The notes under the pieces were generated by a model. It saw nothing but the letters and a program-made list of their open reading frames with translations. It did no database searches and had not been told where the DNA came from. Shown piece by piece: positions 19,141 to 60,978 of a stretch of 64,000 nt of DNA (position 1 is the first letter of the stretch; each line of letters begins with the position of its first letter). Position numbers and translations under genes: made by a program. This stretch comes from Naegleria gruberi. Taxonomy: Eukaryota. The stretch lies in NCBI GenBank assembly GCA_000004985.1, contig GG738884.1; one strand, 5' to 3'.

Positions 19141-19442
19141 TAAGTAACGCAACTAATTATTGTAGAGTTTGAATATCTATTGTAAAATATTATGAACCAT
19201 TTATTTCTCATTTAAAAGCACTCAATGCTCCCTTAAAGCACTATTGAATACATACAATTCAGGTTGAAAATCTGCGATTTTGAAGCCTTCTTTTTGATTA
19301 CATCACATGAAAGAGGTGTTACAATAAAGATTCAACTCAAATGGACATTAAACACAGTATCGTTCAACAACAAACGAAAAAAAATACATCAACTGTTATT
19401 GTGGAGAGTATTTTCAGTTTTTGTTAGTTGGAAAAAAAGCGT

Positions 19443-26075: not shown

Positions 26076-26239
26076 TAAAGATATTTCCCCTAATTTCGAC
26101 ACAATTGACACGGTAAAAGCAGATTATTAATCTTTCCAACTTGAATCAAAATTCAGAATTGAAAAGATTAATACTCAACAACCAAGATTACAATAGAAAA
26201 AGCGATGAATATTTAATTAAAAAATTATTTTTAAAAAAA

Positions 26240-29807: not shown

Positions 29808-32417
29808 TTATAGAGTTATGCTTTCAAACTTTGAATTTCCACTCTTCAAAAGCTTAATATATTCAAGAGTATTTCTGTAGAAGGTTGCAATTGGAGCAAC
29901 AGTCTTGGTTTCATTTTGGTTTTCTGTTGCAGCACCAGCAACACCAAATTCTTCCTCAGAAGATCCAATGTTGGAGTTAATGACATCAATCAAGTCATTC
30001 AAATAGTCTACAGTGACCTTTTCATTATTGTTAATAAATTGATAGAGGTGAACATTCAAAATTTCGATAAAGAGAGCAATCTTTTGATCGGCCATGCATG
30101 ACTTGACAATCTTCAAGGACCATATCAAGCATTCAAGAGATTTGTCAGCATTTTGTAATGATTCATTGTGTTCCATTGGCCAGAATAAGTGGCTACACAT
30201 AAAGGCTGCCTTGCATTGATTTGGCTTGAGTAAGAGTCTGGAAGAGTATTGACAAGTCTTTGTGGAGAGTGTATCATAATTTTCATTGCCAATATTCTTC
30301 ATTTGTCTCAATGCATTAATAATCATTATAAAGTATTCCAATTGAATCTTGCTGTCTTGTTCTTCATAAAGCATAAAGGCTTGCGACAAGAGTTCGAAAA
30401 CAATTGTTTCCAATTTACAGAGATCAGCACAGATGGCACTTTGAAGATACAACTTTAAGGCCATGTCTGATTGTTGGTTAGCCAAAACTTCTAAAATTTC
30501 AATAACATATTGGAACACCTTATCTTCCTTGATTGCTTTTTCTTCTCTATCCTTGGCATTAAAGATACGTTTAGCCAAAGAAAGGTAAGAAAAGACGAGA
30601 GGTGTCAATGTATATTGAATTCTCTTAACACCACCTTGACCGAAAGCCTTTCTAGCAGTAGAATAAACCTTGAATAACATGTCGGTATCTTCACTATCGC
30701 AAATGTGAATGAGTCTAGCAACGAGATTTTGTTCCTCTTCAAAGTCTTCCTCATCAACATCGGTGGTATCTTCTTCGTCCTTCAAGAGTGGCTTGATAAG
30801 TTCGAATAACCCTCTGATTTCATCAACGTTGGTAACCTTGTGTCTATGTTTGAGAGCACATCTACAAATATCCATAGCAATTGATCTTCTATCATCAAAC
30901 CCTAATAATTCAAGAATTTCTCCATACTTTTCGAGTTGAAGGACAGTGAGAACATTCTTGTATGATTCAATTGGAATGAGCAAGAGTTTCTTAACAAGTT
31001 TGACCAAAAGAGGAGTTGAAGTAATATCACCAGCAGTGCTGAGTTGTTGATGGCAGAAGGTAATTACATCATTGACATATTTAATCTTGTCTGGATATGA
31101 TTGCAAAGCAAGATTCATGAGAGAAATTTGGAAGGCCAAAACGTCGGAAAGTTCCATTCTTTGATCGGAAATCTTTTCAACATTTTCCAAAAAGATGTCA
31201 ATAATATTAGCACCACCATTTTGTTCATCACGATTTGGAATGTTTTCTGGGAATTGTCTAGCATAATTGGCAAGACGATCCATGAGAGCAATATAAATTG
31301 TCTTTAAATCCACATCAGCTTGTAACTCTTGGCAAGCAGTAACAATTTGAGTGAGAGTATCAATATGGAATTCATCAGGGAAAACTTGAATAAGACATTC
31401 CATAAGATATTGTTGAGCCATTTGATCGTTAGACTTGATAATAATATTTAAAATCTTTGGTAAGACATCATCTCTATAAATATCCAATTTGATACCATCC
31501 AATTGAGAAAGTCTTACAAGATTAAATCCGATTAAAATCCTCAATTCCAATCTTTCCTTTTCTCTCTTACTTCTTTCCTTGACTGGACCTTCATTCTTCA
31601 AACGACTGAAAAGGAAGACCATTTCATTAAAGTTTTGAAGTACGTAGGCAATAGAGTCGTGAATATTTCCACCAGTACCTTCATATTCACCTCCAGTATC
31701 TGGAAGTTTATCCTTTGTAATTTGACTGAGATAATTTCTCAAGAAGAGACCACGAGTTGGGTGTTGAACTCCTTTACACATTTCCACAAGATCTTTGAGA
31801 ACATCCTTTGCTGGAGCTTGTTTAGATTTGATGTAAATAGATCCAATAGTTGCCATAAGATATAATCTTGGGACAATACTTGGAGTATGTTGAACACGAA
31901 TATATAAATCTTGCATATTTTCCTCACCTCGGAAGAAGGTTGTTAAACGTCCAAGTTGATCAAATACTTGCATATCTGTTTGTTTTAGTACAAGTACCAG
32001 TATGATGACATTTTCATTATTGTTATTAAATAATATAAATTGAAGAGTTTGTGATTTGATGAAGAGAAAATAATATTTTGATTATAATAAAAGTATTGAA
32101 TACATAAGTAACACAACAAGTGAAACAATAAAAATCTTGTTTGATCGGAAAAACCTACAAAGAGCATAGTAATTCTTTGGGCTAAGACTTGATGATCTCA
32201 ACTCACTCAACATTTTAGCAGCGTGATCCAAAGCAGCATTTAAATTATTCTTGTCCAAACATCTGATCATTCTGTGAGCCTCAACCTCCACAACTTCCTT
32301 GGCTTGATTCAAGTATTGGACTTGTCTCTCTTGAGGACTCATATTTTGAGTTCCTTGTTGAATATATTCCTCTTCATCGTCATCAACAGGAGGTTGATTA
32401 TTGTAGTTGGAAGACAT
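29808..32417 (-). CDS. VPS35: VPS35, retromer complex subunit, 808 aa, 2 exons: 32159..32417 and 29808..31975 (minus strand)
   Basis: Exon 1 is MSS...MSPQERQVQYLNQAKEVVEVEAHRMIRCLDKNNLNAALDHAAKMLSELRSSSLSPKNYYAL. Exon 2 begins (Y)MQVFDQLGRLTTFFRGEENMQDLYIRVQHTPSIVPRLYLMATIGSIYIKSK...LFLRNYL and continues through the PRLYL and GLFLRNYL motifs and the conserved C-terminal alpha-solenoid (...CAAFMCSHLFW...EILNVHLYQF...). Intron 31976..32158 (GTAGGT..AAACAG, 183 nt, phase 1); splicing restores Y and the frame. Confidence 0.9.
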
Positions 32418-33936: not shown

Positions 33937-36468
33937 TTGAAGTTGTTTAAGAAATACATCAAAAAAATGGTCACATTGGCTTGCAAATCTTGGCTTTTAC
34001 CATTCATGAATGACAATTTAGAAGCGGCTGTGATGAAGAAACCTCTGGAGGAGTATCCCAAACCATCAAAGCAGAGAAATCTTGTTCAAGTTATAGATCA
34101 CAGTGAAAATTTACATTCCGAATCAGTTTCATTCAATGATCTCTATGTGTTACATCTTTCCGATGGGTTTCATTTTGTGACTGCCAAACTCTCTCCCAAA
34201 TCTATTAAGAGATTGTACAAGTAAGTTGAATTTTCAAGAGTAATCAGAATTAATCCTTTTCATCATTCAATTCCTTTATTAATATACTAAAAATCCATTA
34301 CGTTGTTAATACATTCATTGAAATGCAGACGATTTCCCAACTTTAAACCACTTTCCAAACTCAGAGGAGCCATCATTCGACTCGATGATTATTTCTTTGT
34401 GTTGGGAGGTCCCAATCGATCTCTGTGCTCCATTGTTGTTAACAAGTTTGATTATGTTGGAGCTGCATTGTCCGGAACTTTTCGATCTCCCTCTAACCTT
34501 TCTTCAACTCTCTCAAAACACTTTTCCTTCCAAAATCAACAATTAACCAGACTAAACAATCACCTTATTAATCCAAACAACCTCTTCCTTCAAAACAATC
34601 AAAAAAAACTCCATTCACCTCTTCGACCATTCGTTCCTGGAAGAAACTCAATTCTCAATCATCATACTGCTAGTAATAACAACATTGCTTCTCATTCAAA
34701 CAAAAGTAATTTCAACAACCCTCAAGATTCTCACCAACAAAAACAAACCTTCCCAAGCAATATTGTGAATAATAATACTGCAATTGCTCATCCTTTTCAT
34801 AATAACATCATTCAACCAACAATAACATCCTCATCAACAATGAACCAAGTGCAGAGCAATTTTTTCGCGCCATTTTTGAATGTTTTTAGTTCGACCCAAA
34901 AAACAAACGAAAAAATACCACAACATCAACCCTCTGCACCAATTTTGATAACGGAAGAATTGGACAAGACTAAAAGTGCATCAGGAATAGAGGTATTTCA
35001 TCATAACAAACAAGTAGAATTGTTGCAACAAGAACAACATCAAGGAGAGGAAATCATGGATCAACGAAAAGAATTGACCAAGGAGATTACGGTAAATCAT
35101 CACCATATGGAAGATGCACAATTATCACAAAATTCATTCTTTGTGGAGAATGTTGAAGATGCTTGTGAAATTCCAGCCTCTCAAATGGAACAATTAAAGA
35201 GGATGGAAATACCAGGATTTTCCAATGAAGAATCAATGATGGAAATTCCGATTCCTTCAACTCAACAACTTAAAGCACCAGAACCTTCGAATAGTGTTTC
35301 TTCAATTACTGTTACAGAGTTGGTATCGACATCGGTAACATTGCAAAGTGATAATACCGAAGAGGAATACACTCAAAGAAATGAATCACCATCATATGTG
35401 AGAGTGATATCCACCCCACATAAAAGAAGAACAATTACTGGGATACTGTCTCCAGATCTTGAAATTCCTTCGAGGATACCCCAAAAATTAGAAGTGACTC
35501 CTTCAATAATTCAATCACAAGAAATTACAAGTGACAATGACAGTGATGATGCTATGGAAGATGCTCCAGAAATAATACCCTTCTCCTACAGAAGTGGCTC
35601 TGTATTTTCCCCTTCAAGATATAAGAACATGGCTCCTCCTATAGTCTATCTTCACAGTCAAAATTTCCATACTCAAAAGGCTCCAAGCACTCCTTTACAA
35701 TCCTCTTCAATTAATAATAATAATACTTCTGCTGCCAAAGTTGCTTCAAATCAGAACACATTAGAGATTAAAGAAACACCAGTAAAGGACATTGACGAAT
35801 TTCAAGATCTCATAAATCGAAGGAATAATAGAATAGAAGATGAATCATTTGATTCCTCTGAGGATGAAAATGAAAAGTATGAGGCCTACATGAATAGATC
35901 ACTATTCAGAAATCCTTTACATTTGGAGGAGCATGCCTTCAAGAAGCTTGAACAACGTGCATTACCTCATCATAAAAAAATTATTCAAGCTAGGGAGAGA
36001 AGAAGACAGGAAGAGGATCAAAGGTCAAGAACTATTACAACTATTGAGGTAGAAACTGATATTGAAATAACACCAGACACCATGCTGGAAATACTGAAGG
36101 ATCCACCACTTGAAAGTAGAAAGAGACAAATTATTGAGGAAAAACCAAAAGATAATTTGAAAAAACAAAAAACCAATCCTTCACAATCCTCTCCAAACAC
36201 CACAAGTAGTAGTGAAACAGTTACAAAAAATCCTACACAAAAAGTCCTCTCCTCTTCAAGCACTACTACAAAAATTCAGGATTCTCCAAAACCTGTACAG
36301 ACACAACCAAAACCACAAGAATCTTCAAAAACAGTACTGCAGACACAACCAGTATCACAAGCTCAATTACAACAATCATCCAACCAATCAACTAAACGAA
36401 TCGAAAAGAAACCAACTGAAAAACCTAGGAAAAAAGCAAATTATAGCAATTGGTCTGCCTTTTTGTAA
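33937..36468 (+). CDS. OB-fold protein resembling RMI1 (N-terminal DUF1767 plus OB1) or RPA70N, with a long Asn/Ser/Gln-rich acidic C-terminus; 2 exons: 33937..34220, 34329..36468
   Basis: Spliced N-terminus: ...VQVIDHSENLHSESVSFNDLYVLHLSDGFHFVTAKLSPKSIKRLYK|RFPNFKPLSKLRGAIIRLDDYFFVLGG. This follows the pattern of the RMI1 OB1 segment ([56 protein letters not shown]). Intron 34221..34328 (GTAAGT..TGCAG, 108 nt, phase 2). Family assignment is tentative. Confidence 0.4.
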
Positions 36469-38109: not shown

Positions 38110-38985
38110 ATGAATCAACTAATACCAATTCCCATTCTTTCATTCAAAAATCTCTCCACAGAACAATTAAAACAATTTTTCCTCGATTCACAGCCTGTGA
38201 TTATTCGAGGAATCTCCGAGAATCAGATTTTCTCTCATGTTATGGAATGGTCATTGGATGATCTTTTGAAAAAGGTTCCAAATGTTGAATTTCCAATTAC
38301 TTATCGTGGTGAGGATAGTCATGTGGTTGGAGCTGAATCTGTTTCCAAGATGAAACTTGGAGAATTTATTGGAAAGTGTAGTGAGATTAAATCAGCAGAG
38401 TTGGAGAAGAAATCTTGTATTCGATACTACTTGTCAGGAAGTAATTTATTGGAAGATCTGAATGGGGATAATGCGAATGATGAACTAGTTCAAATAAGAA
38501 ATGAAACTTTGCAATTTAAACAATTTATTGAGGAAAAATTATCAGAAACTAAACGATTGTCCTCTTTAGGATTTTGGATTGGTTTGGATGGACAGAAAAC
38601 TCATCTCCACTTTGATTGTGTAAATAATCTCATGTTGCAAATTAGAGGAAGAAAGACTTTTCTACTAGTTTCTCCCCATAATCATTTGAAACTTAATTTA
38701 CATTCGTATAAATCGTCGAAAGGTCAAGATATGGATGGAGAAATTTACCGATTCTCTCAGTATGATATCTTCAATACGGAAATTCCAAAAGTTGAAATAT
38801 TTAAAGGAACAATTGAAAGAGGAGATTGCATTTTGATTCCTTTAGGTTGGTTTCATGCAGTTTATTCTGAAGGAGAGGAAACAAATTATGGATCTTACAA
38901 TATTGCCTTAAACGCATTTTGGAATGCAACTGAGAGTGAATGGGATACATGGAAACATTTAAAACTATTCAGAAATAATTATTAA
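38110..38985 (+). CDS. JmjC-domain (cupin-like, 2-oxoglutarate/Fe(II) oxygenase) protein, 291 aa
   Basis: ATG at 38110. Contains GFWIGLDGQKTHLHFDCVNNLMLQIRGRKTFLLVSP...ILIPLGWFHAVYSE. The HxD ... H metal-binding triad (HLHFD ... WFHAV) and the double-stranded beta-helix pattern fit small JmjC hydroxylases. Confidence 0.65.
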   Translation: MNQLIPIPILSFKNLSTEQLKQFFLDSQPVIIRGISENQIFSHVMEWSLDDLLKKVPNVEFPITYRGEDSHVVGAESVSKMKLGEFIGKCSEIKSAELEKKSCIRYYLSGSNLLEDLNGDNANDELVQIRNETLQFKQFIEEKLSETKRLSSLGFWIGLDGQKTHLHFDCVNNLMLQIRGRKTFLLVSPHNHLKLNLHSYKSSKGQDMDGEIYRFSQYDIFNTEIPKVEIFKGTIERGDCILIPLGWFHAVYSEGEETNYGSYNIALNAFWNATESEWDTWKHLKLFRNNY

Positions 38986-39326: not shown

Positions 39327-40326
39327 ATGAAAAATCGCTCCACAATCCTTCTCACCACTCTTCTGGTTCTCCTTTCTGTTGTTTTTCAACAAGTCAACCT
39401 TGCAACTGGTCAAACATTTAAAAATTGTTATAGACATTCGACAGGTAAACAAATTGAATGGACCATTGATGACACAAACAATGAATTCAGAGCTCTAGTT
39501 ACATTACCTAACGCTAAAGGTTGGGGAGCTTTTGGTTTAAAGACAACTTCTGCTGGTATGACTGGAGCTACCATTGTGATGGCATATTTAGGTTCGAATA
39601 ATGTTACAACGAATATTAATGAAGTAAGTTGATTGTTTGGTTCTCTATCGCATTAACCACCTTGAAAATTCTCCTTTTATTCAACTGCATATTTCACATC
39701 CATGATGGTGATGATAATGATGAATTTTTATTCGAAACTAAAAGTATTATGCTGCTTCGACTACTATTCCAACAAGAATTAAAGCAACAGGCACAACGTC
39801 ATTCACTAACTTTTTCGTTAATGCAGCCATGAATTATACTGGAAATAATTTATATATCCATGTTGTGAGAAGAATGACTCGACCATCCAATGCACCATCA
39901 ACCTATTTCCAATTCACTGGAAAGAGTACAAGTTATGATTTGCTGTTTGCTCTCCACTCTTCCACAAAGCCAAAGAGTGCTGATTCTTTCTTTCAACATT
40001 CTGAAACACTTCACTTGCAACCATTCACATTTTACACACAACAAAATTATTCAATCAATTGTAATGCCACACCAGCAAGGAATATTCCAGTGTTACCTTC
40101 TACCCCACCTCCACCTGCTCCAACTCCTGTTACTAATACTACCAATGGAACAACACCAGTAACATCAACATCAACAACAACAAATTCAACACGTAACAAT
40201 AATACTGCAGTTTCATCATCTTGGAGTATTCACCAAAATGGTGAAAATAGTTTTATTGGAAATTCATTCAAGTGGATTTGCTTTATTGCCTGTTTTGTTA
40301 CCATGTACATTATGAGAAATGATTAG
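39327..40326 (+). CDS. Secreted DOMON-like domain protein with a Ser/Thr/Pro-rich stalk and a hydrophobic C-terminus (GPI-anchor-like); 2 exons, roughly 39327..39623/39627 and 39827..40326
   Basis: Signal peptide MKNRSTILLTTLLVLLSVVF. The block AKGWGAFGLKTTSAGMTGATIVMAYLGSNNVTTN resembles the DOMON core (GW-A-GFS ... M-G-D-VV). Exon 2 is ...YTGNNLYIHVVRRMTRP...TPPPPAPTPVTNTTNGTTPVTSTSTTTNST...FKWICFIACFVTMYIM. Intron about 200 nt; the exact junction is ambiguous (see findings). Confidence 0.4.
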
Positions 40327-40400: not shown

Positions 40401-43400
40401 TTAATTAGTGCCCCCTCCAACATTATTACTGGAATTATTATTCTTTGATATATATTGATATTCTAATTGGTCACTATCCTTAGATAAATTAGAGTCTGGA
40501 TAACTTTGCTTTTCAGTATTATGAATGTTATGATTACTATTATTATTACTATTTTGTTGAGGGTCATCTTGGCTAACTACATGACCTGCCACCTCGTCTT
40601 CACTTACAACTGCACAAGCATGGTGATGAGCTTTCATCATGTAGGTTGTACATAAGCCTTTTCCTTTCACTTCAACCATTCTTTCTTCAAATTCAAAACC
40701 TAAATCATAAACTCTTTCGTAGGTTGATCGAGAACAGTGGATTCTACCGCCTAAACTTGTACTTTCCATTCTTGAGGCCATATTAATGGTATCACCCCAC
40801 AAATCATAAGCAAACTTCTTGGTACCAATAACACCAGCAACTACACCTCCTGTATTAATACCAACACGAACATTGATTTGATGTCCAAGTGCTTGACGAT
40901 TCTCCAAGTTATAATTTCTCAATACTGCGAAAATATCCATTGCAAATCTGAGAGTTCTTTCAGGGTGATCTGATTGAGTATTACCAATACCACCAACACA
41001 AAAGTAAGCATCACCAATGGTCTTGATCTTTTCCAATTGATACTTGTCTGTGAGTGAGTCAAAACCATTGACCACAGAGTTCAACATCATGACAATTTCA
41101 GTTGGTGTAAGACAACTACTAATAGATGTAAATCCAACCATATCAGAGAAGAAACATGTAATATCATTGAACTTTTCAGCAATGAATGTTTCACCTGATT
41201 TGAGTCTATTGGCAACAGCTTCAGGAAGGATTGAACGAAGGAGATTTTCCGACTTTTTCTTTTCTTCTGCCAACAGGGCATTTTGTTTCTTCTCTGAAGT
41301 GACATCCTTAATAAAGCAAGTGACAACAGGCTTGTTATCAAAGAGTGTTGAGAACAAGTTAATCTTGGCAGGGAATTTGGTATTATTCTTTCTGATACAT
41401 TCCACTTCAATAGTTTCTCCTTGAGCATCAGCATTGGTATTATCCTTTGATGCCTTAATCAAATCATCAATAACTTTACCAAGTGTATCTCTGTTAGAGG
41501 AGTCAAACAAATTGAATAATGGCAAACCAACAAAATCAGTTTGCTTACAGCCAAACATTCTCTGGGCTGCTGGATTAAAAATTTCAATATCACCACGATG
41601 GCTACACAACACGGCACCATCAACAGCAGCATTAAGAATATTCTTCACTTTGGAATCATCATTCTTGGCATTTTCCTTTGTTTCTCTATTCTTGAACATT
41701 GTAATTCTTGAAGGTAATGTATGGTACATGATAAAGTTTCTCATTGTTTCTTCAGAGTCCATCAAATCCAAAGGAATGTAATTGAACATAATTCTCACAT
41801 GGAAAACATTATTCCAATGTGAATCAAATATATTGTAAAGAGCAAAGGAGAATACTAACAACAGCACCGCCCCAACTAGTGAAAAGGCAATAACATATGA
41901 CACTGAAGTTACAGAGAATACTGAAATTAATGTATCCAAGAATACTAACAAACGATCAGTCAGAGCATCTGCCAACACATAGGTTTGCACTTGATTGGAG
42001 AAGAGTTTGAAAGTGGCTGATTTCATTGCAAAAATGTCAGCAGTATTTTCAGATGAAAGTTGAGCATAGATTTCAATCAAATGTTCCAAACCCTTGCATG
42101 AATAAATAGTAGAGTTTGATGTGCAGTTTGTGTCTTGCACCATTGAATCAATCTTTGTAGAGATACCAACACTTGGTAACTTGTTATCTTCAACATTACC
42201 ATAGGCCAGATTATTCCAGCTTGAAACAAGATTTGTTGTGAGTGTTTTCATTTCAGTCTTGTAAGAAATAACATCAGATCCTTCCTTTGATAACTGAGGA
42301 TCATTAATAGCAAGTCCACTTGGTAAGGAAATGTAATTAAATAATTCACCAACGTTGAATGTTGTTCTTTGAATGGATGAGAGAGCTGTTGTTGCTTCCT
42401 TAATATTTAACATGGTACGGTGGGTAGAAATGGTATTGAATGAAGATTCCATGTAGAACATTCCTGAGCACAGAATTGTCACACCCACAATACACAAACC
42501 AATGAGAGCAGCACTCATGTACGGTTTTAGAATTCTCTTTGGTAATTGAATAGAGGCATCATCCACTTCAGATTGCTTTCCTAGGTTATGGTAAATCTTA
42601 CCAATAACATCTTTAGGTACATTCTTTTCCAAGAGTTTAACAAATGTCTTGAGGGAAGAAAAGCTAATTGTTACATAAACCACATAGACAATAGTAAGGA
42701 CACCATAAAGTGAATTGGATGCTAAAAAGTAAATGAAAAAGCTTTGGTCAAGTACTTCCGTTTTTTGTTGAGTTCTGGAAATAAAACTTTGACAAAAAAC
42801 ATCAAAGGCCCCTTGGAATGCATCTTGGTTCAACCACAAGAACATGAATGGATATGAACTGAGCGTGCTATTGTACTCATTTGGTGAGAGGCCTTCAAAA
42901 TATTCTATGTGTTTCATCATTGAGTAGACCATTTGGGAAATCGAGACATTACTTGGGTTAGTATTATTAAAGATACCCAAATCGTTTGGATTTTCAACGT
43001 TTGGAACAACAATTTGCCTGCTAACAGAAATATAATCAGAGTACATCTCTGGTGTGAATAAACCTTTTTGACCCATTACCCTAAGGTCATCAATGAATTG
43101 CTTTGCTTTTGATAACTTTCCTTTCAGCTTGGCAATGAACTCTTCAGTGCTGCTCATATCGAGAGTATGTAATAATTTTAGATTTTCAGATGGGCTGTTC
43201 TTGTAGAGATTCAAGTAGGTTTGTTGTAAACGAATATCTCTCAATGCAAGAAGAGGGACCATTCTTGGCTTGCATGCACTTTGCACTGCCTTAATATCAC
43301 TTAATACCAAGCTTGAAATAACAGAGTCCCATATTATACCTGATGCCAATAGTAAGAAAGAAGCAATAACGAAAATTAAAAAGGAAAGTAGCTGAACATT

Positions 43401-45587
43401 ATGTTGCTGAGGAGTAGCAAGCGATGATCTGAGAATACTTTCTCTCTTCAGTTGAGGATTGTTTTCAACGCCATCCATTCTTTGAGATCCAAGATCAAAT
43501 TCCGAGGCTCTTTCGAATGGTTCATCTGGATCATCAAATTCATTAAAATCAGCTGTTGAAGCAATATTATTACCCTTCTTGATACCAAATGAGAAGGTTT
43601 TACCTCCTGCTTCAGAGAATTTGGTCGAAGATGGAGGTGGATTGTCATCAAATGAAAAGTTTGGAACTATACGATTCTTCTTACTAGCTCCCTTTTTCAA
43701 ATTTGGTCTGAACTTCATTTTGGCTTCTTCATCTTCAATAGCCATAGCTTCTTGGAAGAGCTCTTGAGCAAATTCCTTATTGAATTTGAATTTTTCCACA
43801 TAAGATGCATAGTAACGAAGGACAGTCTTGTTATTTCTATGCTTGGCTATCAAATTTTGGAATGTTGATTCACACTCTGACATTAATTCGGAAGCTCTAG
43901 TGTTGGTTTGCTCAATCTTGTCAAAATTGATGATATCATTGGTCATTTCCTTCCAAAAAGCTCTGTGCAATGCTGCTAATTCGGACTGATTCTTCTCCAT
44001 TCTTTGCAAGAAGAATTTCAATTCGTATGGATTAGAGTTGTCAATCATTTCAAATTCCTTTTCTCTTTCAGAAATTAAGAATTTGTATAAAAAGTTTGGC
44101 TTTGCTTTCAGGGCCTTCTTTAAAAGTGATGAGGCAAAGACTTGAGCATTGACTTCATTCTTCCAATAGTAGGAAACAATTAAACTGCATGTAAGCAAGA
44201 GTCGAGAATCATTAAAGCTCTTTTGTAAAGATGCACCCTTAATAAGACTGAGAGCAATTTCTGGATCTGTAATGTCATCACCCTCTGTTCTATTCTTTGA
44301 TTTAAGAGAAAATTTAAAGAAGAGATTCAACTGTTTCAATCTATTATCTTCTTCAAATTCTTGATAGACAAGCTGAGCCTCCTTTTCCAGCATTTTAAGT
44401 GGAAGCTTTTCAGCATCAGCGTTTCCATCATTGCTTCTTCTGAGAATAGAGGATAATGCCTCAGCACGACGAATACTCACCATGAATCTACCTCTGACCT
44501 TTCTATAAATTACCGTCATGTATATTTCCAATCCTGCCATTCCCACCAAGAAACCAGTCATGATCAAACCCAAGGTAAGACCTGCGCCGAGACCAATACC
44601 CAATATGGAATTATCATCTGAATTGACTATTGAAGTTATTAATGCACCAATGGCTGCTCCCAATCTAGCCCCTGCAACACCAAAAACAAAAGAATTTTCA
44701 GTCTTTCTATAGAATGGTAAAAAGTAAAAAATCAAGACCATGAATACAAGTGTGATAGTGATATGTATCACAGATCTAATGTAGGCATATTGCTGAGGTA
44801 CCACATACATTAGCATTAATTGAAGTGGATTAGCAACAGACAAAAAACCCATTGGTATATTATTATCACCAATAAAGTAGCCTCCCTTAGTTTGTTCGGA
44901 TTCTTGTGAAATCATAATTGATAAAAAGTTCAAAATAAGCATTGGTATAAAGGCTATAATCATCAAGACAATGAGGACAATATTACCTGACATGACACAT
45001 GGTGTGGTATTAAATCTCGAGAGAACATAAATCTGTTCATCATAATTACTAATTGTGTGTAAAGCACTTGTATCACAATCAATAAAGGATGTAAATATAA
45101 AAGTCATTATCATACTAAGAACTTGAATAATATTTCCTAGTGTGGTGGCAGCCTTCTTGTAACGATCTAATTGTTTGCTAGATCGAAAGATTGCATGTAA
45201 GGCAAGGAAGAAACTCACCACTCCACAAGCTATTAACAAAAAGCTTGCTGCTCCAAGTGCTGCAATAGCACCAAAAGGTAAAAGGTGGAATGAAAGTGTT
45301 ATTGGATAATTAATAACTGTGAATAACCATTCTCCATATTCTCCCCAATTATAAGAACCTAGTGTTGGAAGAAATATAGAGACCCAAAATATGTACAAGT
45401 AGTATATTATAGACAGAGTTTTCCTTTTCCATCCATATTGCTTAACTTCGGATGATTCCATCGAAATCACAAACTTTGTAAAGCCCTCCTGTATCTTTAA
45501 CCATACTGATGCATAGAGTGAGGAACCTCCAGATGACTCTGATGAAACATTTGAACCTAGGGCAGAACCTTCATGATTTTGGTCCAT
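40401..45587 (-). CDS. Multi-pass membrane class III nucleotidyl cyclase with a PAS domain, 1728 aa; predicted adenylyl cyclase from its specificity residues
   Basis: Single uninterrupted ORF; ATG at 45585-45587. The N-terminal block has about 8-10 TM helices (residues about 60-370). A cytoplasmic region follows, then a second block of about 4 TM helices with large loops (about 730-1230). Next is a PAS domain ([41 protein letters not shown]...[42 protein letters not shown]). A signalling helix ([18 protein letters not shown]) leads into one cyclase catalytic domain ([12 protein letters not shown]...[14 protein letters not shown]...[39 protein letters not shown]). Lys in KTIGD and Asp in YDLWG are the adenine-selecting pair of class III cyclases. 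Confidence 0.8.
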   Translation of the reverse strand: [1728 protein letters not shown]

Positions 45588-46571
45588 TTTGTTATTATTG
45601 TTGTTATGTGAGTGATGTGGTTTTGAATTTGTGTGTGTTCAGTTATTGTATGAAGAGCCAATCTACAAACAATATATTAACCAACGTTGTTGTGTTTATC
45701 CGTTATGATGTTTGTAGATGTTTATAATGTCGTTCTTTTTAAATAAATATTAAGGCAGTTTCGAGAATGGAAATATTTTCATCCCACCCGATGTAATATT
45801 TACGATTATCCCTTTTTAATCCATAAGAAGCTACTTACATCTGGACTAGATTGATGACTATTACGTTTTCAAAAAACAATAAAACTCGAACTAGAGGAGA
45901 GGTTGAAATTCCTTAATGTTTGCTGTTGAGAATTTTCTCTCCGTTTTATATTGTTTTTTAACTTTCCCTATATTATTGACTGAAAAATACAATTTGATGA
46001 TTTTCCTTATTGTTCTTCTTCTGTATGATGATAAAACAATAATAATGTGAGATGTTGCTCTTATGGTGTGATGAGTGTTTTTTAACGCTTTGGTTTTGGC
46101 AAGTTTGGCGCGCATACAATTATTCTCACCACCACCAGTTTGCATTCTCGAATTGTATTGAATTTGCCCTTACTTGTTCTTGGTGATTTGGTCTCAATCT
46201 CACAACATTACTGTTTGAGGATGCTTAGAGGCAAGTTACTGCCAAGGAACAAGCAGTAACATTACCTTTTGGAAAGGTCTGAATGCAGTTAAGTGTTGGT
46301 TTGGGAAATTTGAAACAACTTTTTCAAATTCCAAGCAACGAACTGTGGCATAATTATGTACTTATGGAGGGGTTAGTTGGGCGAGCGTGGAAGTTTAAGG
46401 AACATTAAGCAGCTTACCAGTCGTAAGTATTGAAAGAAAATTGGAATCAAGCAATACATATTTCTAAAGAAATATGCTTGTATAGCTTGCTTAATTGCAT
46501 TGAGCTATTTAAGAACAGAGTAAGTGCACTTCCCCATACCGGAGTGGTTGAACATTTTCAGTAGTCATTCG

Positions 46572-46587
46572 CTCAACAAAGCCAATG
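46572..46587 (+). promoter_or_regulatory. Tandem direct repeat CCAATGAG-CCAATGAG (two CCAAT-box-like motifs) in a divergent intergenic region
   Basis: gccaatgagccaatgagc read directly. Position is about 0.8 kb upstream of the 47384 gene and about 1 kb upstream of the cyclase gene. Function not established. Confidence 0.2.
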
Positions 46588-47383
46588 AGCCAATGAGCAC
46601 TGTAAAGAAACTGAACTAGGTGATGAAAATTCCTTCTTTATACAATACTACGTTTTGGTTTAATCATTTCCGTTTAAAGAGTTTCTTTTTCCAATTGAGT
46701 AATGTCATTTGGAGCAACTTCAAATGATTTGTTACAATACATTTAACTACAGCCAAACCCAATTTGTGAAAGGCTAATAGACCAATCACCTCTTTATTGA
46801 TTTTTTTATCAATTTCCTTTCCTGGTTATCACCTTTTTTGATAGAAGTCAATTGCAAAATCTGATTTCAAAGCCACAAACTGTAATGTTTCCTTAAAGGC
46901 ATCACCTACCATAAGGTTCTCGTTTTGTTATCAGCAATATTCCACAACTGTTCCAATTGTGGAATTATTGCTGGTAACTATCAAGGGTCTTTTCTCGTAC
47001 AGTTTTATTTTGTCATCCGATTACCGAACAGAATCTGTTGCAGCATCCACAATTTAAATCACACCTGAATTTTCACACACAACCCAAGAAATTTGAGAAA
47101 CTCAAAAAAACATTGCCTGCTTCCGTGCACATCCATCATCATTGTTCTTGATTCAGGTTTTCTTCGGAATTAGTTTTCACATCAAAGAGTTGACGTAAAA
47201 ACCACTCTGAGGTATAAACAGTGATGTAACAAGACCAATACAAGAAGAGAGAACTCCATCATAGTATTGATTATATAAAACAAAAGGAATAATAGAACAC
47301 TTTCTATTCTCAATCTAACTCTTAATTGCCACACTCACAGTACTTAGACTTGTAGATATAACTGTTAATTTTCAAACCTCTCT

Positions 47384-48721
47384 ATGAAAGTAATTGTTGA
47401 AAATAATATTAAGGAAGGAATGAATCAATTAATGAACAGAAACAAGAGAACCGAGCCATCCCTACTGTTGATGACTGAAGATTCAAGCAGTGATCATCTA
47501 ACCATTAATGAATCATCCCCAATTAAATCACTAAATTCAGAACCATCATCATTCTCGGAAGGTTTTTATCATACATCCCTAATCACTACCACATCAGAAG
47601 AAACAAACCAATTGAATCATCAATACTCAATGCTTGATAATGCCAGAGATGAGGGTAACAATAATAATAAGGACAATTATATGAGTGTCATTGAGGAAGA
47701 AATATTTCCTGAAGAGTCACCAACAATTTTGGGCCCTACACCTCTCAATAATACCAACCCACAAATCGTCCATCTTAATACTTCACTCCCTAAGAATGGA
47801 TATCCTCTCTATAATTTAGCTCCATCCCTTCCTAGAATGAGCAATGTAAATTCTGTAAATAACCAAAATAGCAAACAAACTGAGAAGAATCAATTAAGAA
47901 TGAGGGCTGCCCTTAATGGACATGTTATATTCTCTCATCATCCAAAAGAATTGGGAGAATTTTATCATGTGGAGTGGTGGTATTATTTGAGTACTTTTGA
48001 TCATACCATGATTCCATTCTTTAAACATTCACAGGATGGTGATACTTCTATAGTTCAGATTGGGAATGCAATTCATTGTAGAGATTATCAATTGAAATTG
48101 GTCAGTCAATGTAAGGATTTATCATGTGATGATTTGTCTCACTTTTGGTCAACTTATTATTTTGATAATCAACATCGAATTCTTACTCAAAGTCCAGTAT
48201 CCATTTCAATGAGTCCCTTGTATCATAATGCGCCATCCAAGTCAGTTCAAGGAGGAGGTCATGATAATTCCATGATTGTCGATGAAGAATCTCTTTCAGA
48301 ATTTGACACCATCTCACAAGATGAAATTCATTCCATAAACTATGAACAATGGATTGAAACCAAGCATAATCATGAAGAACCTCAAATGGATGACAATTTT
48401 GAACAAGATGAATTCTTCCCATCTCACAATGATGAAGATTATATGGCAGATATTAGTAACATGTCAAATTCTTTCCACAAAAATGACACTTCTCATCAAG
48501 ATGAGATAGCCCACATCGCAGACTCAAGAATACAAGATACTCATCCATCCCATTCTGCAAAAGAACAAGACGAAGACAAGCAAGAAGCAATTTCCACAAC
48601 CTCCTCAAGAACAGATGAAGAAATTATGCTCTCTCTTGATCAATTCATTGAATCTTCCTCTTATCACATCAATGAACAATTCAAAATCATTTCAAGAGAA
48701 TTTTCACGAATTTTCTTCTAA
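47384..48721 (+). CDS. Hypothetical protein (445 aa) with an acidic C-terminal region
   Basis: ATG at 47384; long ORF with codon bias. No family recognised. Confidence 0.45.
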   Translation: MKVIVENNIKEGMNQLMNRNKRTEPSLLLMTEDSSSDHLTINESSPIKSLNSEPSSFSEGFYHTSLITTTSEETNQLNHQYSMLDNARDEGNNNNKDNYMSVIEEEIFPEESPTILGPTPLNNTNPQIVHLNTSLPKNGYPLYNLAPSLPRMSNVNSVNNQNSKQTEKNQLRMRAALNGHVIFSHHPKELGEFYHVEWWYYLSTFDHTMIPFFKHSQDGDTSIVQIGNAIHCRDYQLKLVSQCKDLSCDDLSHFWSTYYFDNQHRILTQSPVSISMSPLYHNAPSKSVQGGGHDNSMIVDEESLSEFDTISQDEIHSINYEQWIETKHNHEEPQMDDNFEQDEFFPSHNDEDYMADISNMSNSFHKNDTSHQDEIAHIADSRIQDTHPSHSAKEQDEDKQEAISTTSSRTDEEIMLSLDQFIESSSYHINEQFKIISREFSRIFF

Positions 48722-49610: not shown

Positions 49611-51683
49611 TTATTGAACAGAACATCCCGTTTGTTGAGATTGGGCAATTTGCCTACAGATTGACAATAAAACTCTTAATCTTTCCTTAGTATTGGTAAT
49701 TGAAAGCAAGTCAAGTTTGAGTTGTGTTGTGAGAGGAAGCATGGCACTCACCCAAAAACTCAACTTTTCTGGTTCGTTTTCCTTTGGGAATGGTCCAATC
49801 TTTTGGAGAATGGCTTGCTTGGTTTCGTCACCAACTTCCATCATGAAAGTCTCAACCATCATGTAGAGTTGGTCATGTAATTGTTGGAGAGACAATCTCT
49901 CTGCTTGACGCCACACATTGGTTTGCAATTCAGCCAATGATGCAAAGGAGGTGAGGGGAATATTAGAACTAGCACCTGAATTGAGTGTTTCAGATTGTTG
50001 CTGCTGGCCATTGTTACCATTATTAGTAGTACTATTATTCGAGGATGAGCTCACAACAGCAGAAATAGTATCCCTATTTCTTTGAGAATTCTCAATGACA
50101 GATATTTCATTTTCAGTCTTATCTTTGAGAATTTGAACTTTGGCACAAATATATCCATCAGTGTCCCACTTTTCCAGAATTTTGAATCGTTCAGTACCAA
50201 CTGTCTCAATGATACTTCTACCATCTGGCAACATTTTAAAGCTCGTAATCTTGGCAATACACCCATACTTGGCAATGTCACCATTTCTATTGGGTCCACA
50301 ACAAACCAATCCAAAGCATTTACTTCCACTCATACATCTTCTCATCATGAGTCGATATCTTGGTTCAAAAATGTGCAATGGTAGTACGGTATGTGGATAG
50401 AGTACAAAGTCTAATACAAAGATTGGAATGTGATTCACATTGAGTTGTCTTGTCCCAACCTCTTCTTCCATTTCCTTCTTTCTCTCTTCGTATTGAGCTT
50501 TACAATACTTTTGACAGAGTTCATTAATAACCACAGTAATTGGATAATCGTATGGCACCACGTGAATGGTCTGTCTACACAGTGGACACTTATCACTATA
50601 ATCGTGCACTCTACAAATGCAACTTCTATCAAACGTATGTCCACAACTCAACGTTACAGGTTCATAGAATACTCTGTAACAAAGTGGACACTCAAGCTCT
50701 TCACAATCCTCGCTGAAATCATAGACAGTATTCGTTCTCTTTCTCTCAGTAACATCTTGATCCAAGGTTGGTTCTTCTTCTTGCTGTTGGAGTTTGGCCA
50801 ATCGTTCCTGTTCCTCCCTGTACATTTTGTCTTGAATTTGTTTTTCAAGTTGAGCTACATATCTATTGGCAGTATCATTTTGTGGATCATTTTGGAAGAT
50901 TGTCTTTAAATCTCTCTCAGCTTCTTGTTCCAGTTGCATTGGTAAAAGCATTTCAACCTTTTTCAAGAGTACACTAATCAATTGTGAACGAACTGCATAA
51001 ATTGTATCATTGATTTGCCTTAATCTTTCCTGATCGTGATAGAAAGTTTGCTGGAAATTCTTAATATCATCAAAGAATTGAAACTTTAGTTTGGATTCTC
51101 GTGTTTTCTGTAATAACTGATCTTGCTGACCCATCAAATCTTCTAAATGAGTTTGAAAATTCTTTGCCTTATTAGCCAACAATGAAAGAGCCTGATGTGG
51201 TTTCCTCTCTCTCACAAAACCATTCACTCGTTCCATAAATTGTTTCATCTCCTCTGGAGTCATTACAAAAAAGAATAGTTCATTATTAGAATTCAACACT
51301 TGCTTTTCTTCTTCTTGTCCTGAATTGTTGTTGTGCTGTTGAATTTTGGCATTGTTTTCATGTTGGGAGAGACATGAATCATGAGAAACTATTGTATCAT
51401 GATTATTATTGTAATGTTGATGAGGATTTACAGAGTGTTGATGATGTTGTTGTTGATTGGTGGAGGAAGTACTATAGGAACAATTGGTTGTTGGTGAATG
51501 TTGTTGTTGTTGTTGTTGGTCTTGTTGATTGGTAGAAGTAGAATTGTTATTAGGAGAGGATGTGGAAGAATAACCTCCATGATAGGCTTGATTATTGTTG
51601 CCATCATTCGGAGAGTTGCAATGTTCTTGTTGCTGATTAAAATTCATCATGCGTTGTTGATACTGCTGATTGTTATTATTCAT
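49611..51683 (-). CDS. LONRF-like protein (690 aa): poly-Asn/Gln N-terminus, C3HC4 RING finger, and an ATP-dependent protease La (LON) N-terminal substrate-binding domain
   Basis: RING: ECPLCYRVFYEPVTLSCGHTFDRSCICRVHDYSDKCPLCRQ. LON N-domain: IPIFVLDFVLYPHTVLPLHIFEPRYRLMMRRCMSGSKCFGLVCC...GCIAKITSFKMLPDGRSIIETVGTERFKI. ATG at 51681-51683. Confidence 0.75.
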   Translation of the reverse strand: MNNNNQQYQQRMMNFNQQQEHCNSPNDGNNNQAYHGGYSSTSSPNNNSTSTNQQDQQQQQQHSPTTNCSYSTSSTNQQQHHQHSVNPHQHYNNNHDTIVSHDSCLSQHENNAKIQQHNNNSGQEEEKQVLNSNNELFFFVMTPEEMKQFMERVNGFVRERKPHQALSLLANKAKNFQTHLEDLMGQQDQLLQKTRESKLKFQFFDDIKNFQQTFYHDQERLRQINDTIYAVRSQLISVLLKKVEMLLPMQLEQEAERDLKTIFQNDPQNDTANRYVAQLEKQIQDKMYREEQERLAKLQQQEEEPTLDQDVTERKRTNTVYDFSEDCEELECPLCYRVFYEPVTLSCGHTFDRSCICRVHDYSDKCPLCRQTIHVVPYDYPITVVINELCQKYCKAQYEERKKEMEEEVGTRQLNVNHIPIFVLDFVLYPHTVLPLHIFEPRYRLMMRRCMSGSKCFGLVCCGPNRNGDIAKYGCIAKITSFKMLPDGRSIIETVGTERFKILEKWDTDGYICAKVQILKDKTENEISVIENSQRNRDTISAVVSSSSNNSTTNNGNNGQQQQSETLNSGASSNIPLTSFASLAELQTNVWRQAERLSLQQLHDQLYMMVETFMMEVGDETKQAILQKIGPFPKENEPEKLSFWVSAMLPLTTQLKLDLLSITNTKERLRVLLSICRQIAQSQQTGCSVQ
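51500..51520. repeat. (TTG)6-7 microsatellite (poly-Gln on the minus-strand CDS)
   Basis: ttgttgttgttgttgttgg read directly; inside a wider CAA/CAG-rich low-complexity coding tract of about 300 nt (about 51380-51760). Confidence 0.7.
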
Positions 51684-60212: not shown

Positions 60213-60978
60213 TTTTTTGTTGTGTAATTTGTTGTTGAATGATTTGATTTGAAAATTAAATAGAAATGATCTTAAACTCCACAAATTAGAAACTTAACTA
60301 AACTCTTATTAGAATCTTGTTTTATCCATCAAAATCAGAAAATTGTAACATATTGTAAATATTATTTGTATAATAATAAAATTGTTATTCTTCAGCAAAT
60401 TTTCCTCTCAAACATTCCAAAAATGTCAATGCCAATAAAAAATATCAAGAGAAGTGTTTGTTTTGGGTTGTGGCTTAACTCATATTCATATAGATTGAGA
60501 GCTATTGCATATTTAGTATGGATTGGTGGAAGCATTGTTGGTTCGATCTTTGATTCATGTGTAATGTTAAGGGAGAAAATGAAAAGTATTGAATGCATTC
60601 AGTGGGTTATGTTGTTAGAAACTATTTTAAATAACATTTCATAAAGATCTTTTTTGAGGATTTGTTCCTCTGGAAGTTTGGAAGTGTGTCTGAGAGTTCT
60701 TGGGAACAAACTTGCTGAGAACACAATTCTTCAATTTATGTAAAAGAAAGAATTCCTTCAATGAACAACCAACAGAGAGAACTGAAATGTAATTATTATC
60801 AATTTCATGTTAATTGCCATTCTAGAAATTGTGTCAATCAAATAAAGAAGAATCACCTTCCATAATTCAATGTTCTTCATATGCTATTGAGCTTTTTTTA
60901 CTAAACATTCATTGGAAAAGTATTAAAGTTGACTATTTTGGCATGCAATAAATATGCAGCTGAATTTAGAAGGTGAAT

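What the first reader, a model, noticed from the sequence alone, without database searches (positions are those of the whole stretch)
40401..45587. Large membrane cyclase with an unusual architecture: two multi-TM blocks, a PAS domain and a single adenylyl-type class III catalytic domain
The sequence shows a 1728-aa intron-less ORF. Its C-terminal domain carries the canonical class III cyclase signatures FSDMVGFT, KTIGDAYF and YDLWGDTINMASRMES. Directly upstream is a textbook PAS fold (ILNAAVDG ... FGCKQTDFVGLPL ... IKDVTSEKK) joined to it by a signalling helix. The N-terminal ~1230 residues consist of one block of ~8-10 hydrophobic helices, a ~350-aa soluble region, and a second block of ~4 helices with large loops. 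The Lys (KTIGD) and Asp (YDLWG) specificity pair predicts ATP rather than GTP as substrate. A single catalytic domain implies a homodimer. This combination differs from the adenylyl cyclase types I know in amoebozoa: ACA-like 12-TM two-domain enzymes, the single-TM CHASE-type ACG, the histidine-kinase/response-regulator ACB/ACR, and the soluble two-domain sGC. It also differs from the LRR/PP2C adenylyl cyclases of fungi. The closest analogy is the PAS-cyclase fusion seen in some bacteria and in protists with expanded cyclase repertoires. The membrane blocks could be a ligand- or ion-sensing module that gates the PAS domain.
Basis: partly seen in the sequence, partly recalled or inferred. Interest (0 to 1): 0.7.

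Follow-up and report, generated by a model that had tools for sequence, protein, structure and literature searches.

The report
TmcB-like receptor adenylyl cyclase of Naegleria
This is a real but unstudied Naegleria gruberi gene for a 12-helix membrane adenylyl cyclase; its sensor-like membrane part is related to a Dictyostelium protein (TmcB) that genetics had already tied to cAMP signalling.

Summary
An intact 1728-codon ORF lies at 40401-45587, on the minus strand. It is 100% identical to a Naegleria gruberi "predicted protein", so the organism is a heterolobosean, not an amoebozoan.

All eight catalytic residues are present, including the Lys/Asp pair that predicts ATP as substrate. This fits a homodimeric adenylyl cyclase.

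AlphaFold models (pLDDT about 80), hydropathy, charge bias and three conserved cysteine pairs support this order:
- an 8-TM block
- a cytosolic alpha-solenoid
- a disordered linker
- PAS, a signalling helix and the cyclase domain

The architecture is not a one-off. It defines a family with at least 10 N. gruberi paralogues, found across Heterolobosea. A topological look-alike occurs in Tritrichomonas. No member has been characterised.

The 8-TM block and solenoid are homologous to TmcB-family proteins. This fusion suggests that TmcB modules act on cyclases.

Verdict: a new variant of a known kind, of moderate interest.

The parts
40401..45587 (-). Complete intron-less CDS, 1728 aa plus TAA stop (stop codon at 40401-40403)
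   Evidence: 100% identical to the NCBI N. gruberi predicted protein P0001
45432..45587 (-). aa 1-52: cytosolic N-terminal tail, poorly conserved
44538..45431 (-). aa 53-350: 8-TM block (TmcB-type). The extracytoplasmic loop 167-200 forms a beta-hairpin with the conserved pair C171/C197. A conserved LPFYR..N motif follows TM6.
   Evidence: Hydropathy; AF2 helices; conservation and K/R bias; alignment with TmcB-like P0152/P0162; profile hits of 56 and 19 bits. No Pfam family.
43713..44420 (-). aa 390-625: cytosolic alpha-solenoid, including Pfam TPR_TmcB (523-623)
   Evidence: PF25474 at 51.8 bits against a cut-off of 27; 55.4 bits when scanned alone; AF2 helices 390-625; 82% identical to the N. 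lovaniensis orthologue
43458..43703 (-). aa 629-710: disordered, low-complexity cytosolic linker
   Evidence: pLDDT below 50
42660..43391 (-). aa 733-976: TM9, helical ectodomain 1 (754-951; conserved C772/C932; 3 N-x-S/T sites; beta-hairpin 857-881) and TM10
42516..42659 (-). aa 977-1024: short basic cytosolic loop (9 K/R) with the conserved KxxGKIYH motif
41838..42515 (-). aa 1025-1250: TM11, helical ectodomain 2 (1046-1228; conserved C1155/C1164; motif WNxLxYG...ID....G..NCT) and TM12
41652..41837 (-). aa 1251-1312: cytosolic juxtamembrane helices linking TM12 to PAS
   Evidence: 82% identical to the orthologue
41298..41651 (-). aa 1313-1430: PAS domain. Its closest solved relatives by sequence are FixL/DosP, but it has no histidine in the F-alpha helix.
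   Evidence: PAS_9 E 2e-15; FixL E 1e-6; family alignment
41181..41297 (-). aa 1431-1469: signalling helix / cyclase-transducer-element-like segment (LLRSILPEAVANRLKSGE)
   Evidence: AF2 helices 1431-1453 and 1456-1463; aligns with the pre-C2 segment of AC9; 97% identical to the orthologue; weak HNOBA hit
40632..41180 (-). aa 1470-1652: class IIIa cyclase homology domain. Catalytic residues are D1482 and D1526 (metal), K1522 and D1595 (adenine), R1574, N1602, R1606 and K1641.
   Evidence: PF00211 E 3.6e-53; PDB hits AC9, AC8, AC5, Rv1625c and GC-A; residue conservation; Foldseek TM-score 0.84-0.90 to solved CHDs
40404..40631 (-). aa 1653-1728: disordered, N/S/Q-rich C-terminal tail
   Evidence: pLDDT below 50; poorly conserved

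Best explanation
The gene encodes a receptor-type, homodimeric class IIIa adenylyl cyclase. It belongs to a heterolobosean family built as: TmcB-like 8-TM block, cytosolic alpha-solenoid, two tandem TM-helical-bundle-TM ectodomain modules, PAS, signalling helix and catalytic domain.

Shown by the sequence and the tools:
- The domain order, and a complete set of catalytic residues with the Lys/Asp pair that specifies ATP.
- Evidence consistent with a 12-TM topology with the N-terminus inside, placing both large loops outside the cytoplasm.
- Family-wide conservation of the architecture.

Inferred:
- Two chains pair through their catalytic domains to form two symmetric active sites that make cAMP.
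- The two ectodomains each look like a four-helix bundle whose first and last helices continue into the membrane, as in bacterial Tar, PilJ or NIT-type sensors. They would bind an extracellular ligand.
- The resulting shift of TM12 would pass through the juxtamembrane helices, the PAS domain and the transducer helix to set the geometry of the catalytic dimer.
- The 8-TM TmcB-type block and its solenoid would be a second regulatory or scaffolding input. Their biochemical role is unknown.
For: Catalysis:
- PF00211 at 180 bits.
- The best solved relatives are AC9, AC8, AC5, Rv1625c-type Cya and GC-A.
- The domain carries both C1-type residues (D1482, D1526, R1574) and C2-type residues (K1522, D1595, N1602, R1606, K1641) in one chain. 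These are conserved in 24-29 of 30 family members.
- The segment before the catalytic domain aligns with the pre-C2 helix of AC9. The PAS-helix-CHD unit aligns over about 380 columns with human sGC.

Topology:
- 8 + 4 TM helices.
- Short predicted inside loops carry 3, 1, 2 and 9 K/R, against 0, 1, 0 and 0 for the short outside loops.
- The three family-conserved cysteine pairs (171/197, 772/932, 1155/1164) all lie in predicted outside segments, as do N-x-S/T sites.

Sensor character of the ectodomains:
- The ectodomains diverge fastest: 53-55% identity to the orthologue and 22-29% to paralogues. The figures are 82-97% for the solenoid, PAS, transducer helix and CHD. This is the pattern expected of a receptor family that diversifies its ligand specificity.

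Family:
- About 45 cluster representatives (50% identity clusters) carry the N-module plus PAS plus CHD. All named members are Heterolobosea.

Established knowledge: membrane anchors of class IIIa cyclases can act as receptors that signal through the transducer element (Beltz et al. 2016, PMC4821796, found).
Against: - No enzymatic, ligand or expression data exist for any member.
- The models are monomers built from 28-30 sequences (pTM 0.53), so domain packing and dimerisation are not shown.
- The PAS domain could itself be the sensor.
- With at least 10 paralogues, heterodimers cannot be excluded.
Confidence: 0.6

Rival explanations
1. The cytosolic PAS domain is the true sensor, for a small molecule, redox state or gas. 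The 12-TM part would be mainly an anchor or localisation device. The enzyme would then work like the soluble PAS-regulated cyclases of bacteria, tethered to a membrane.
For: PAS is present in every full-length member and is highly conserved, at 89% identity to the orthologue. Its closest solved relatives are the ligand-binding heme PAS domains of FixL and DosP (E 1e-6 for the single sequence, 3.5e-14 for the family profile).
Against: The heme-ligating histidine of the F-alpha helix is absent in the query and is not conserved in the family. No LOV-type cysteine motif is visible in the sequence. An anchor-only role would not explain three conserved extracytoplasmic cysteine pairs, two folded ectodomains, or conservation of the 1250-aa module from Naegleria to Pharyngomonas.
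Confidence: 0.2
2. The 8-TM TmcB-type block is a transporter or channel, and the protein is bifunctional. It would couple ion or solute flux to cAMP synthesis, like the K+-channel/cyclase fusions of Paramecium and Plasmodium or the P4-ATPase/guanylyl cyclase fusions of apicomplexans and ciliates.
For: It is a large, conserved polytopic block with invariant polar and proline residues (P291, N298) next to or within TM helices. Transporter-cyclase fusions are a recurrent protist theme; for example, hit P0005 from Blepharisma is a P-type phospholipid transporter with a cyclase domain.
Confidence: 0.12
3. The protein is an obligate heterodimer partner of a paralogue, or a regulatory pseudo-enzyme, rather than an autonomous homodimeric cyclase.
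For: There are at least 10 paralogues of the same design in one genome. A few family members carry substitutions at catalytic positions: one T at D1482, one E at K1522, and one V and one N at D1595. Those members could act as degenerate partners.
Against: This particular protein and its orthologue retain every catalytic residue of both half-sites, so nothing forces heterodimerisation.
Confidence: 0.08

Closest known systems
Mycobacterial Rv1625c / Cya (6-TM homodimeric class IIIa adenylyl cyclase)
   Same: One catalytic domain per chain carries all the catalytic residues, and a helical transducer segment precedes it. It is 38-40% identical over the CHD. Sequence E-values are 1e-45 to 1e-47 and Foldseek TM-scores are 0.82-0.87.
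   Different: It has a 6-TM anchor with no ectodomains, no PAS domain and no TmcB-type block or solenoid. It is bacterial.
TmcB ('tiny macrocysts protein B') family, Pfam TPR_TmcB PF25474; Dictyostelium tmcB is described as a regulator of the cAMP pathway in sexual development (Muramoto et al. 2005, cited in PMC12750705 and PMC8516963)
   Same: The TPR_TmcB domain scores above the Pfam cut-off. The 8-TM block, with its extracellular Cys...Cys loop and LPFY motif, is homologous to that of the TmcB-like proteins P0152 and P0162. Those proteins also have four widely spaced C-terminal TM helices.
   Different: The two TmcB-like proxies have a PAS domain directly after the TPR and no cyclase domain. 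Their C-terminal 4-TM region shows no detectable sequence similarity to block 2 here. Dictyostelium TmcB itself could not be compared.
Soluble guanylyl cyclase (H-NOX, PAS, coiled coil, CHD)
   Same: The cytosolic domain order is PAS, helix, CHD. The top Foldseek hit is 8hbf_A (E 7e-15) over about 380 aligned columns. There is a weak Pfam HNOBA hit on the helix.
   Different: There is no H-NOX domain. The protein is membrane-embedded. It has Lys/Asp (ATP) rather than Glu/Cys (GTP). All catalytic residues are in one chain rather than split between alpha and beta subunits.
Mammalian membrane adenylyl cyclases (AC9, AC8, AC5)
   Same: These are the best sequence matches for the CHD, at E about 1e-60, to both C1 and C2. 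They also have 12 TM helices in total.
   Different: They are 2 x 6 TM with two complementary catalytic domains in one chain (a pseudo-heterodimer) and are regulated by G proteins. Here the layout is 8 + 4 TM with one CHD, ectodomains and a PAS domain.
Bacterial extracytoplasmic four-helix-bundle sensors (NIT domain of NasR; 4HB/PilJ ligand-binding domains of chemoreceptors and histidine kinases)
   Different: There is no sequence similarity (3-13% identity) and no Pfam hit. Two bundles sit in one chain, separated by a TM hairpin. This is a eukaryotic protein with conserved disulfide-type cysteine pairs.
Tritrichomonas foetus cyclase P0009 (TRFO_09863)
   Same: It has the same topology: about 8 TM, 4 widely spaced TM, PAS and CHD. 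BLASTP gives E 3e-41 over query 1127-1652. It shares the ectodomain-2 motif.
   Different: Its first TM block and soluble region show no detectable similarity to the TmcB-type parts. The gene model has a probably spurious N-terminal exonuclease domain.
Protist receptor or transporter cyclase fusions (trypanosomatid receptor cyclases; K+-channel and P4-ATPase cyclases of alveolates)
   Same: The principle is the same: a class III catalytic domain is fused to a large lineage-specific membrane or ectodomain module.
   Different: The N-terminal modules are unrelated. None has the TmcB-type block, the tandem helical ectodomains or the PAS domain.

Membership tests
Class III (IIIa) nucleotidyl cyclase | Cyclase homology domain above the curated threshold | tested here: met
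   PF00211 at 180.3 bits against a cut-off of 21.9, covering 3-182 of 183 profile positions
Class III (IIIa) nucleotidyl cyclase | Two metal-binding Asp, the transition-state Asn/Arg pair and phosphate-binding Arg/Lys | tested here: met
   D1482, D1526, N1602, R1606, R1574 and K1641 are present and conserved in 24-29 of 30 family members. They align with the C1 and C2 residues of AC9.
Class III (IIIa) nucleotidyl cyclase | Adenine-specifying Lys/Asp pair (guanylyl cyclases have Glu/Cys instead) | tested here: met
   K1522 and D1595; K in 29 of 30 and D in 26 of 30 family members
Class III (IIIa) nucleotidyl cyclase | Helical transducer segment directly before the catalytic domain | tested here: met
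   LLRSILPEAVANRLK aligns with LLRNIIPYHVAEQLK of AC9; AF2 helices at 1431-1463
Class III (IIIa) nucleotidyl cyclase | cAMP formation from ATP by a dimer | not testable with these tools
   Needs an enzyme assay
TmcB family (PF25474-containing membrane proteins) | TPR_TmcB domain above the curated threshold | tested here: met
   51.8 bits against a cut-off of 27; 55.4 bits for the isolated region
TmcB family (PF25474-containing membrane proteins) | Homologous polytopic block N-terminal of the TPR | tested here: met
   Whole-library phmmer E-values of 2.7e-5 and 5e-4 to P0152 and P0162, over query aa 192-624 and 182-651 respectively (match positions, offset by 50). The block-1 profile scores 56 and 19 bits. 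Conserved Cys...Cys and LPFY motifs are shared. P0152 and P0162 are proxies identified by their own PF25474 hits of 84-89 bits.
TmcB family (PF25474-containing membrane proteins) | PAS domain directly after the TPR, and no enzymatic output domain (as in the two proxies) | tested here: not met
   Here the TPR is followed by a disordered linker and the 4-TM block. PAS comes 700 aa later and is followed by a cyclase domain.
TmcB family (PF25474-containing membrane proteins) | C-terminal set of four widely spaced TM helices homologous to block 2 | tested here: inconclusive
   The spacing pattern is the same in P0152 and P0162, but the block-2 profile finds nothing there
TmcB family (PF25474-containing membrane proteins) | Direct similarity to Dictyostelium TmcB itself | not tested
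   The sequence could not be obtained. The third homologue search returned nothing and the AFDB library was unavailable.
Heme-PAS oxygen sensors (FixL/DosP type) | Proximal histidine in the F-alpha helix | tested here: not met
   There is no His in 1358-1383 of the query and no conserved His in the family alignment
Soluble guanylyl cyclase | H-NOX domain, alpha/beta heterodimer with split catalytic residues, Glu/Cys specificity | tested here: not met
   No H-NOX hit. All catalytic residues are in one chain, with Lys/Asp. Only the PAS-helix-CHD order is shared.
Mammalian-type 2x6-TM adenylyl cyclase (also Dictyostelium ACA) | Two catalytic domains (C1, C2), each preceded by 6 TM helices | tested here: not met
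   One CHD; TM helices arranged 8 + 4
Four-helix-bundle / NIT extracytoplasmic sensor domains | Four-helix-bundle fold flanked by TM helices | tested here: inconclusive
Four-helix-bundle / NIT extracytoplasmic sensor domains | Sequence-profile membership (Pfam 4HB_MCP, NIT, PilJ and similar) | tested here: not met
   No such hit for either ectodomain at E up to 10

The most novel reading that the evidence does not exclude
TmcB-family membrane modules (8 TM plus solenoid, present in Dictyostelium, Chlamydomonas cilia, Carpediemonas and marine protists) may be a widespread and so far unrecognised class of eukaryotic sensors. Their conserved job would be to control class III cyclases. In Heterolobosea the module is fused in cis to the cyclase. 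In Dictyostelium TmcB would do the same in trans, which would explain the cAMP-pathway phenotype of the tmcB mutant. On this reading the Naegleria fusion assigns a biochemical function to an orphan family.
Probability: 0.25. Interest if true: 0.7.

Novelty: new variant of a known kind. Interest (0 to 1): 0.5.

Why it matters
- Naegleria species carry 80-100 cyclases whose inputs are essentially unknown (PMC9928731, PMC9283941). That includes the lethal pathogen N. fowleri, which has members of this family.
- This work defines one coherent sub-family of at least 10 genes per genome. It comes with a concrete, testable receptor design: two extracellular helical bundles feeding PAS and then the cyclase.
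- The fusion also links the orphan TmcB family directly to cAMP synthesis. TmcB was known only from a Dictyostelium developmental phenotype and from a Chlamydomonas ciliary proteome.
- If the ectodomains really are eukaryotic counterparts of bacterial four-helix-bundle chemoreceptor sensors, the family could serve as a model for how such sensors drive a class III cyclase.

Tried and rejected
- The plus-strand reading of the given coordinates is full of stops.
- Amoebozoan origin is rejected: there is a 100% match to N. gruberi.
- A heme-binding FixL-like PAS is rejected: the histidine is missing.
- Internal duplication of the two ectodomains was tested with hhalign on the family alignments. 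The probability was 0.7%, so there is no detectable similarity.
- No transporter, channel or known sensor family was found for the TM blocks or ectodomains. Pfam gave nothing at E up to 10, the profile search of PDB sequences gave nothing and Foldseek against the PDB gave nothing better than E 0.09.
- Foldseek against AFDB50 was not available.
- The second homologue search, with aa 1-1300, returned only four proteins.
- The third search, with an alignment of the query plus the two TmcB-like proxies, returned nothing. The word prefilter was probably swamped by TM-helix words. As a result, Dictyostelium TmcB could not be retrieved.
- The Naegleria genome paper (Cell 2010) is not held in the library.
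- Rfam and tRNA scans found nothing near the gene.
Full report
**1. The observation**

The coordinates are right, but the ORF is on the minus strand. The plus-strand translation of the same interval is full of stops. The frame has 1728 sense codons from ATG to TAA and is the longest ORF in the window. With the window's empirical stop frequency of 0.059, its chance probability is about 1e-46.

The protein is 100% identical, over its whole length, to an NCBI "predicted protein" of Naegleria gruberi. A 68%-identical orthologue in N. lovaniensis starts at the same methionine. The intron-less gene model is therefore sound. The window comes from a heterolobosean (Discoba), not an amoebozoan. Its GC content is about 34% throughout.

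**2. Domains**

Pfam finds three domains above threshold:
- Guanylate_cyc at 1470-1652 (E 3.6e-53)
- PAS_9 at 1323-1430 (E 2e-15)
- TPR_TmcB (PF25474) at 523-623 (E 1e-13, 51.8 bits against a cut-off of 27), which is new relative to the finding

Nothing in Pfam covers the transmembrane blocks or the large loops, even at E up to 10.

**3. Catalytic domain**

The best solved relatives are mammalian AC9, AC8 and AC5 (both the C1 and C2 halves), mycobacterial Rv1625c-type Cya, and the ANP receptor guanylyl cyclase. The domain is therefore class IIIa.

One chain carries both sets of catalytic residues:
- C1-type: D1482, D1526, R1574
- C2-type: K1522, D1595, N1602, R1606, K1641

These are conserved in 24-29 of 30 family members. 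By the established rules for class III cyclases, this means a homodimer with two symmetric active sites is feasible and that ATP is the substrate (Lys/Asp rather than Glu/Cys).

The helix before the domain (LLRSILPEAVANRLK) aligns with the pre-C2 helix of AC9. It is the most conserved part of the protein, at 97% identity to the orthologue. The AlphaFold model of aa 720-1728 has a pLDDT of 80.9. Its PAS-helix-CHD unit aligns over about 380 columns with human soluble guanylyl cyclase, and the CHD alone gives TM-scores of 0.84-0.90 to solved cyclase domains.

**4. PAS domain**

By sequence it is closest to the heme PAS domains of FixL and DosP (E 1e-6; 3.5e-14 with the family profile). However, the F-alpha helix contains no histidine in the query and none is conserved in the family. 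It is not a FixL-type heme sensor, and its ligand, if any, is unknown.

**5. Membrane module**

Hydropathy and an AlphaFold model of aa 51-1250 (pLDDT 80.4) agree on the following layout:
- 8 TM helices (53-350), with a beta-hairpin in loop 167-200
- a cytosolic alpha-solenoid (390-625) that contains the TPR_TmcB hit
- a disordered linker (629-710)
- 4 TM helices (733-753, 952-976, 1025-1045, 1229-1250)

The helices of the last four TM segments continue for 60-70 residues into two all-helical domains, at 754-951 and 1046-1228.

Several lines support a 12-TM topology with the N-terminus inside and both large domains outside the cytoplasm:
- The short predicted inside loops hold 3, 1, 2 and 9 Lys/Arg, against 0, 1, 0 and 0 for the short outside loops.
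- The three cysteine pairs conserved across the family (171/197, 772/932, 1155/1164) all fall in predicted outside segments.
- N-x-S/T sites also fall in those segments.
- This orientation places the solenoid, PAS and the cyclase domain in the cytosol, as they must be.

The two ectodomains show no detectable similarity to each other (hhalign probability 0.7%).

**6. Fold comparisons for the N-module**

- Foldseek against the PDB finds nothing (best E 0.09).
- A family profile finds no PDB sequence outside the PAS and CHD regions.

The secondary structure shows four long helices per ectodomain, with the first and last continuous with TM helices. This fits two tandem Tar-like TM-bundle-TM sensor modules.

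**7. The family**

An exhaustive phmmer search with aa 51-1250 against 1.84 billion representatives gave only 149 hits. A local phmmer search showed that essentially every hit long enough to extend beyond the N-module also carries PAS plus the cyclase domain, about 45 representatives in all. The rest are fragments.

All named members are Heterolobosea:
- N. gruberi, with at least 10 paralogues: P0001, P0003, P0017, P0164, P0109, P0161, P0019, P0034, P0052 and P0089
- N. fowleri
- N. lovaniensis
- Willaertia magna
- Acrasis kona
- Pharyngomonas kirbyi

An intron-bearing homologue lies on an unnamed Logan contig.

A Tritrichomonas foetus cyclase (P0009) has the same topology. It shares sequence from ectodomain 2 through the CHD (BLASTP E 3e-41; ectodomain motif WNxLxYG...ID...NCT). 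Its first block is not detectably related.

Between orthologues and paralogues the ectodomains diverge fastest, at 53-55% and 22-29% identity. The cytosolic parts are conserved at 82-97%. This is the pattern expected of a receptor family that diversifies ligand specificity.

**8. The TmcB link**

Outside the cyclase family, the only significant library hits are P0152 (a metagenome protein) and P0162 (MMETSP). They match query aa 182-651, that is, TM4-TM8 plus the solenoid. They score 84-89 bits on PF25474 and have no cyclase domain. They share the extracellular Cys...Cys loop and the LPFY motif of the 8-TM block and are hit by the family's block-1 and solenoid profiles. They also have four widely spaced C-terminal TM helices, but these show no sequence similarity to block 2.

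PF25474 is named after Dictyostelium TmcB. Two papers describe tmcB, citing Muramoto et al. 2005 (Mech Dev 122:733), as a regulator of the cAMP signalling pathway in sexual development (PMC12750705; PMC8516963). A TmcB-related protein is listed in a Chlamydomonas cilia proteome (PMC11244166).

Fusion of a TmcB-type module to an adenylyl cyclase in Heterolobosea therefore suggests a direct functional link between TmcB modules and cAMP synthesis. This is an inference. Dictyostelium TmcB itself could not be retrieved for comparison.

**9. Literature status**

[quoted passage not shown] I found no description of this architecture and no experimental work on any member. Database names for the members are "predicted protein" or generic cyclase-domain labels.

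**10. Mechanism proposed**

I propose a receptor-type homodimeric adenylyl cyclase. Ligand binding at the extracellular helical bundles would shift TM12. The shift would then pass through the juxtamembrane helices, PAS and the transducer helix to the catalytic dimer. The TmcB-type block and solenoid would be a second regulatory or scaffolding input.

Shown: the domain order, the catalytic residue set, evidence consistent with the topology, and conservation across the family. Inferred: dimerisation, ligand sensing by the ectodomains and the signalling route. That membrane anchors of class IIIa cyclases can act as receptors is established (Beltz et al. 2016, PMC4821796).

The rivals are:
- PAS as the real sensor
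- a transporter or channel function for the 8-TM block
- heterodimerisation among paralogues

**11. Verdict**

This is a new, uncharacterised variant of a known kind (a class III receptor cyclase), not a categorically new system. It is one member of a sizeable family rather than a unique protein. The added value lies in the TmcB homology and the chemoreceptor-like ectodomains, both of which give concrete experiments. Interest is 0.5.

Noticed in passing
window 45588-47383: About 1.8 kb upstream of the cyclase start codon has no ORF longer than 84 aa on either strand and no Rfam or tRNA hit. This may be long for an intergenic region in this genome (not checked); it was not examined further.
   Followed up: partly
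L001 273-2291 and 4252-6981 (Logan SRR29240419 contig): The intron-bearing homologue of the cyclase on this unnamed contig has two notable neighbours: a second, shorter cyclase gene (672 aa, Guanylate_cyc) and a TrkH-family cation transporter gene. The organism is unknown.
   Followed up: no
P0009 (Tritrichomonas foetus TRFO_09863), aa 48-209: The parabasalid look-alike begins with a 3'-5' exonuclease domain (PF01612) ahead of about 12 TM helices, PAS and the cyclase domain. This is probably a merged gene model.
   Followed up: no
window 38110-38985 (+), 39327-39632 (+) and 39829-40326 (+): The downstream neighbours are a Cupin_8/JmjC-like protein (E 9e-28), a short ORF with sub-threshold DOMON / cellobiose-dehydrogenase cytochrome similarity, and a 165-aa ORF with no family. 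The last two may be exons of one gene.
   Followed up: no
window 49611-51683 (-): This 690-aa ORF combines a RING/U-box finger with a LON substrate-binding domain, an LONRF-like architecture.
   Followed up: no
window 4202-4275 (+); 19428-20927 (+); 21702-26075 (+); 26141-28183 (+); 29808-31973 (-): Other genes recognised in the window are tRNA-Val(AAC), a GH20 hexosaminidase, a BCAS3-like WD40 protein, an aldo/keto reductase and Vps35. Several long ORFs have no Pfam hit: 14970-16664, 16786-19140, 28195-29637, 7158-8864, 58734-60284, 34303-36468 and 47384-48721.
   Followed up: no
P0146 (Acrasis kona, source name 'cob') and P0109 (N. gruberi, 2426 aa): These are atypical family members. P0146 lacks the first part of the 8-TM block and has only a weak PAS hit. 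P0109 carries roughly 900 extra C-terminal residues after a cyclase domain that matches only 135 of 183 Pfam profile positions.
   Followed up: partly
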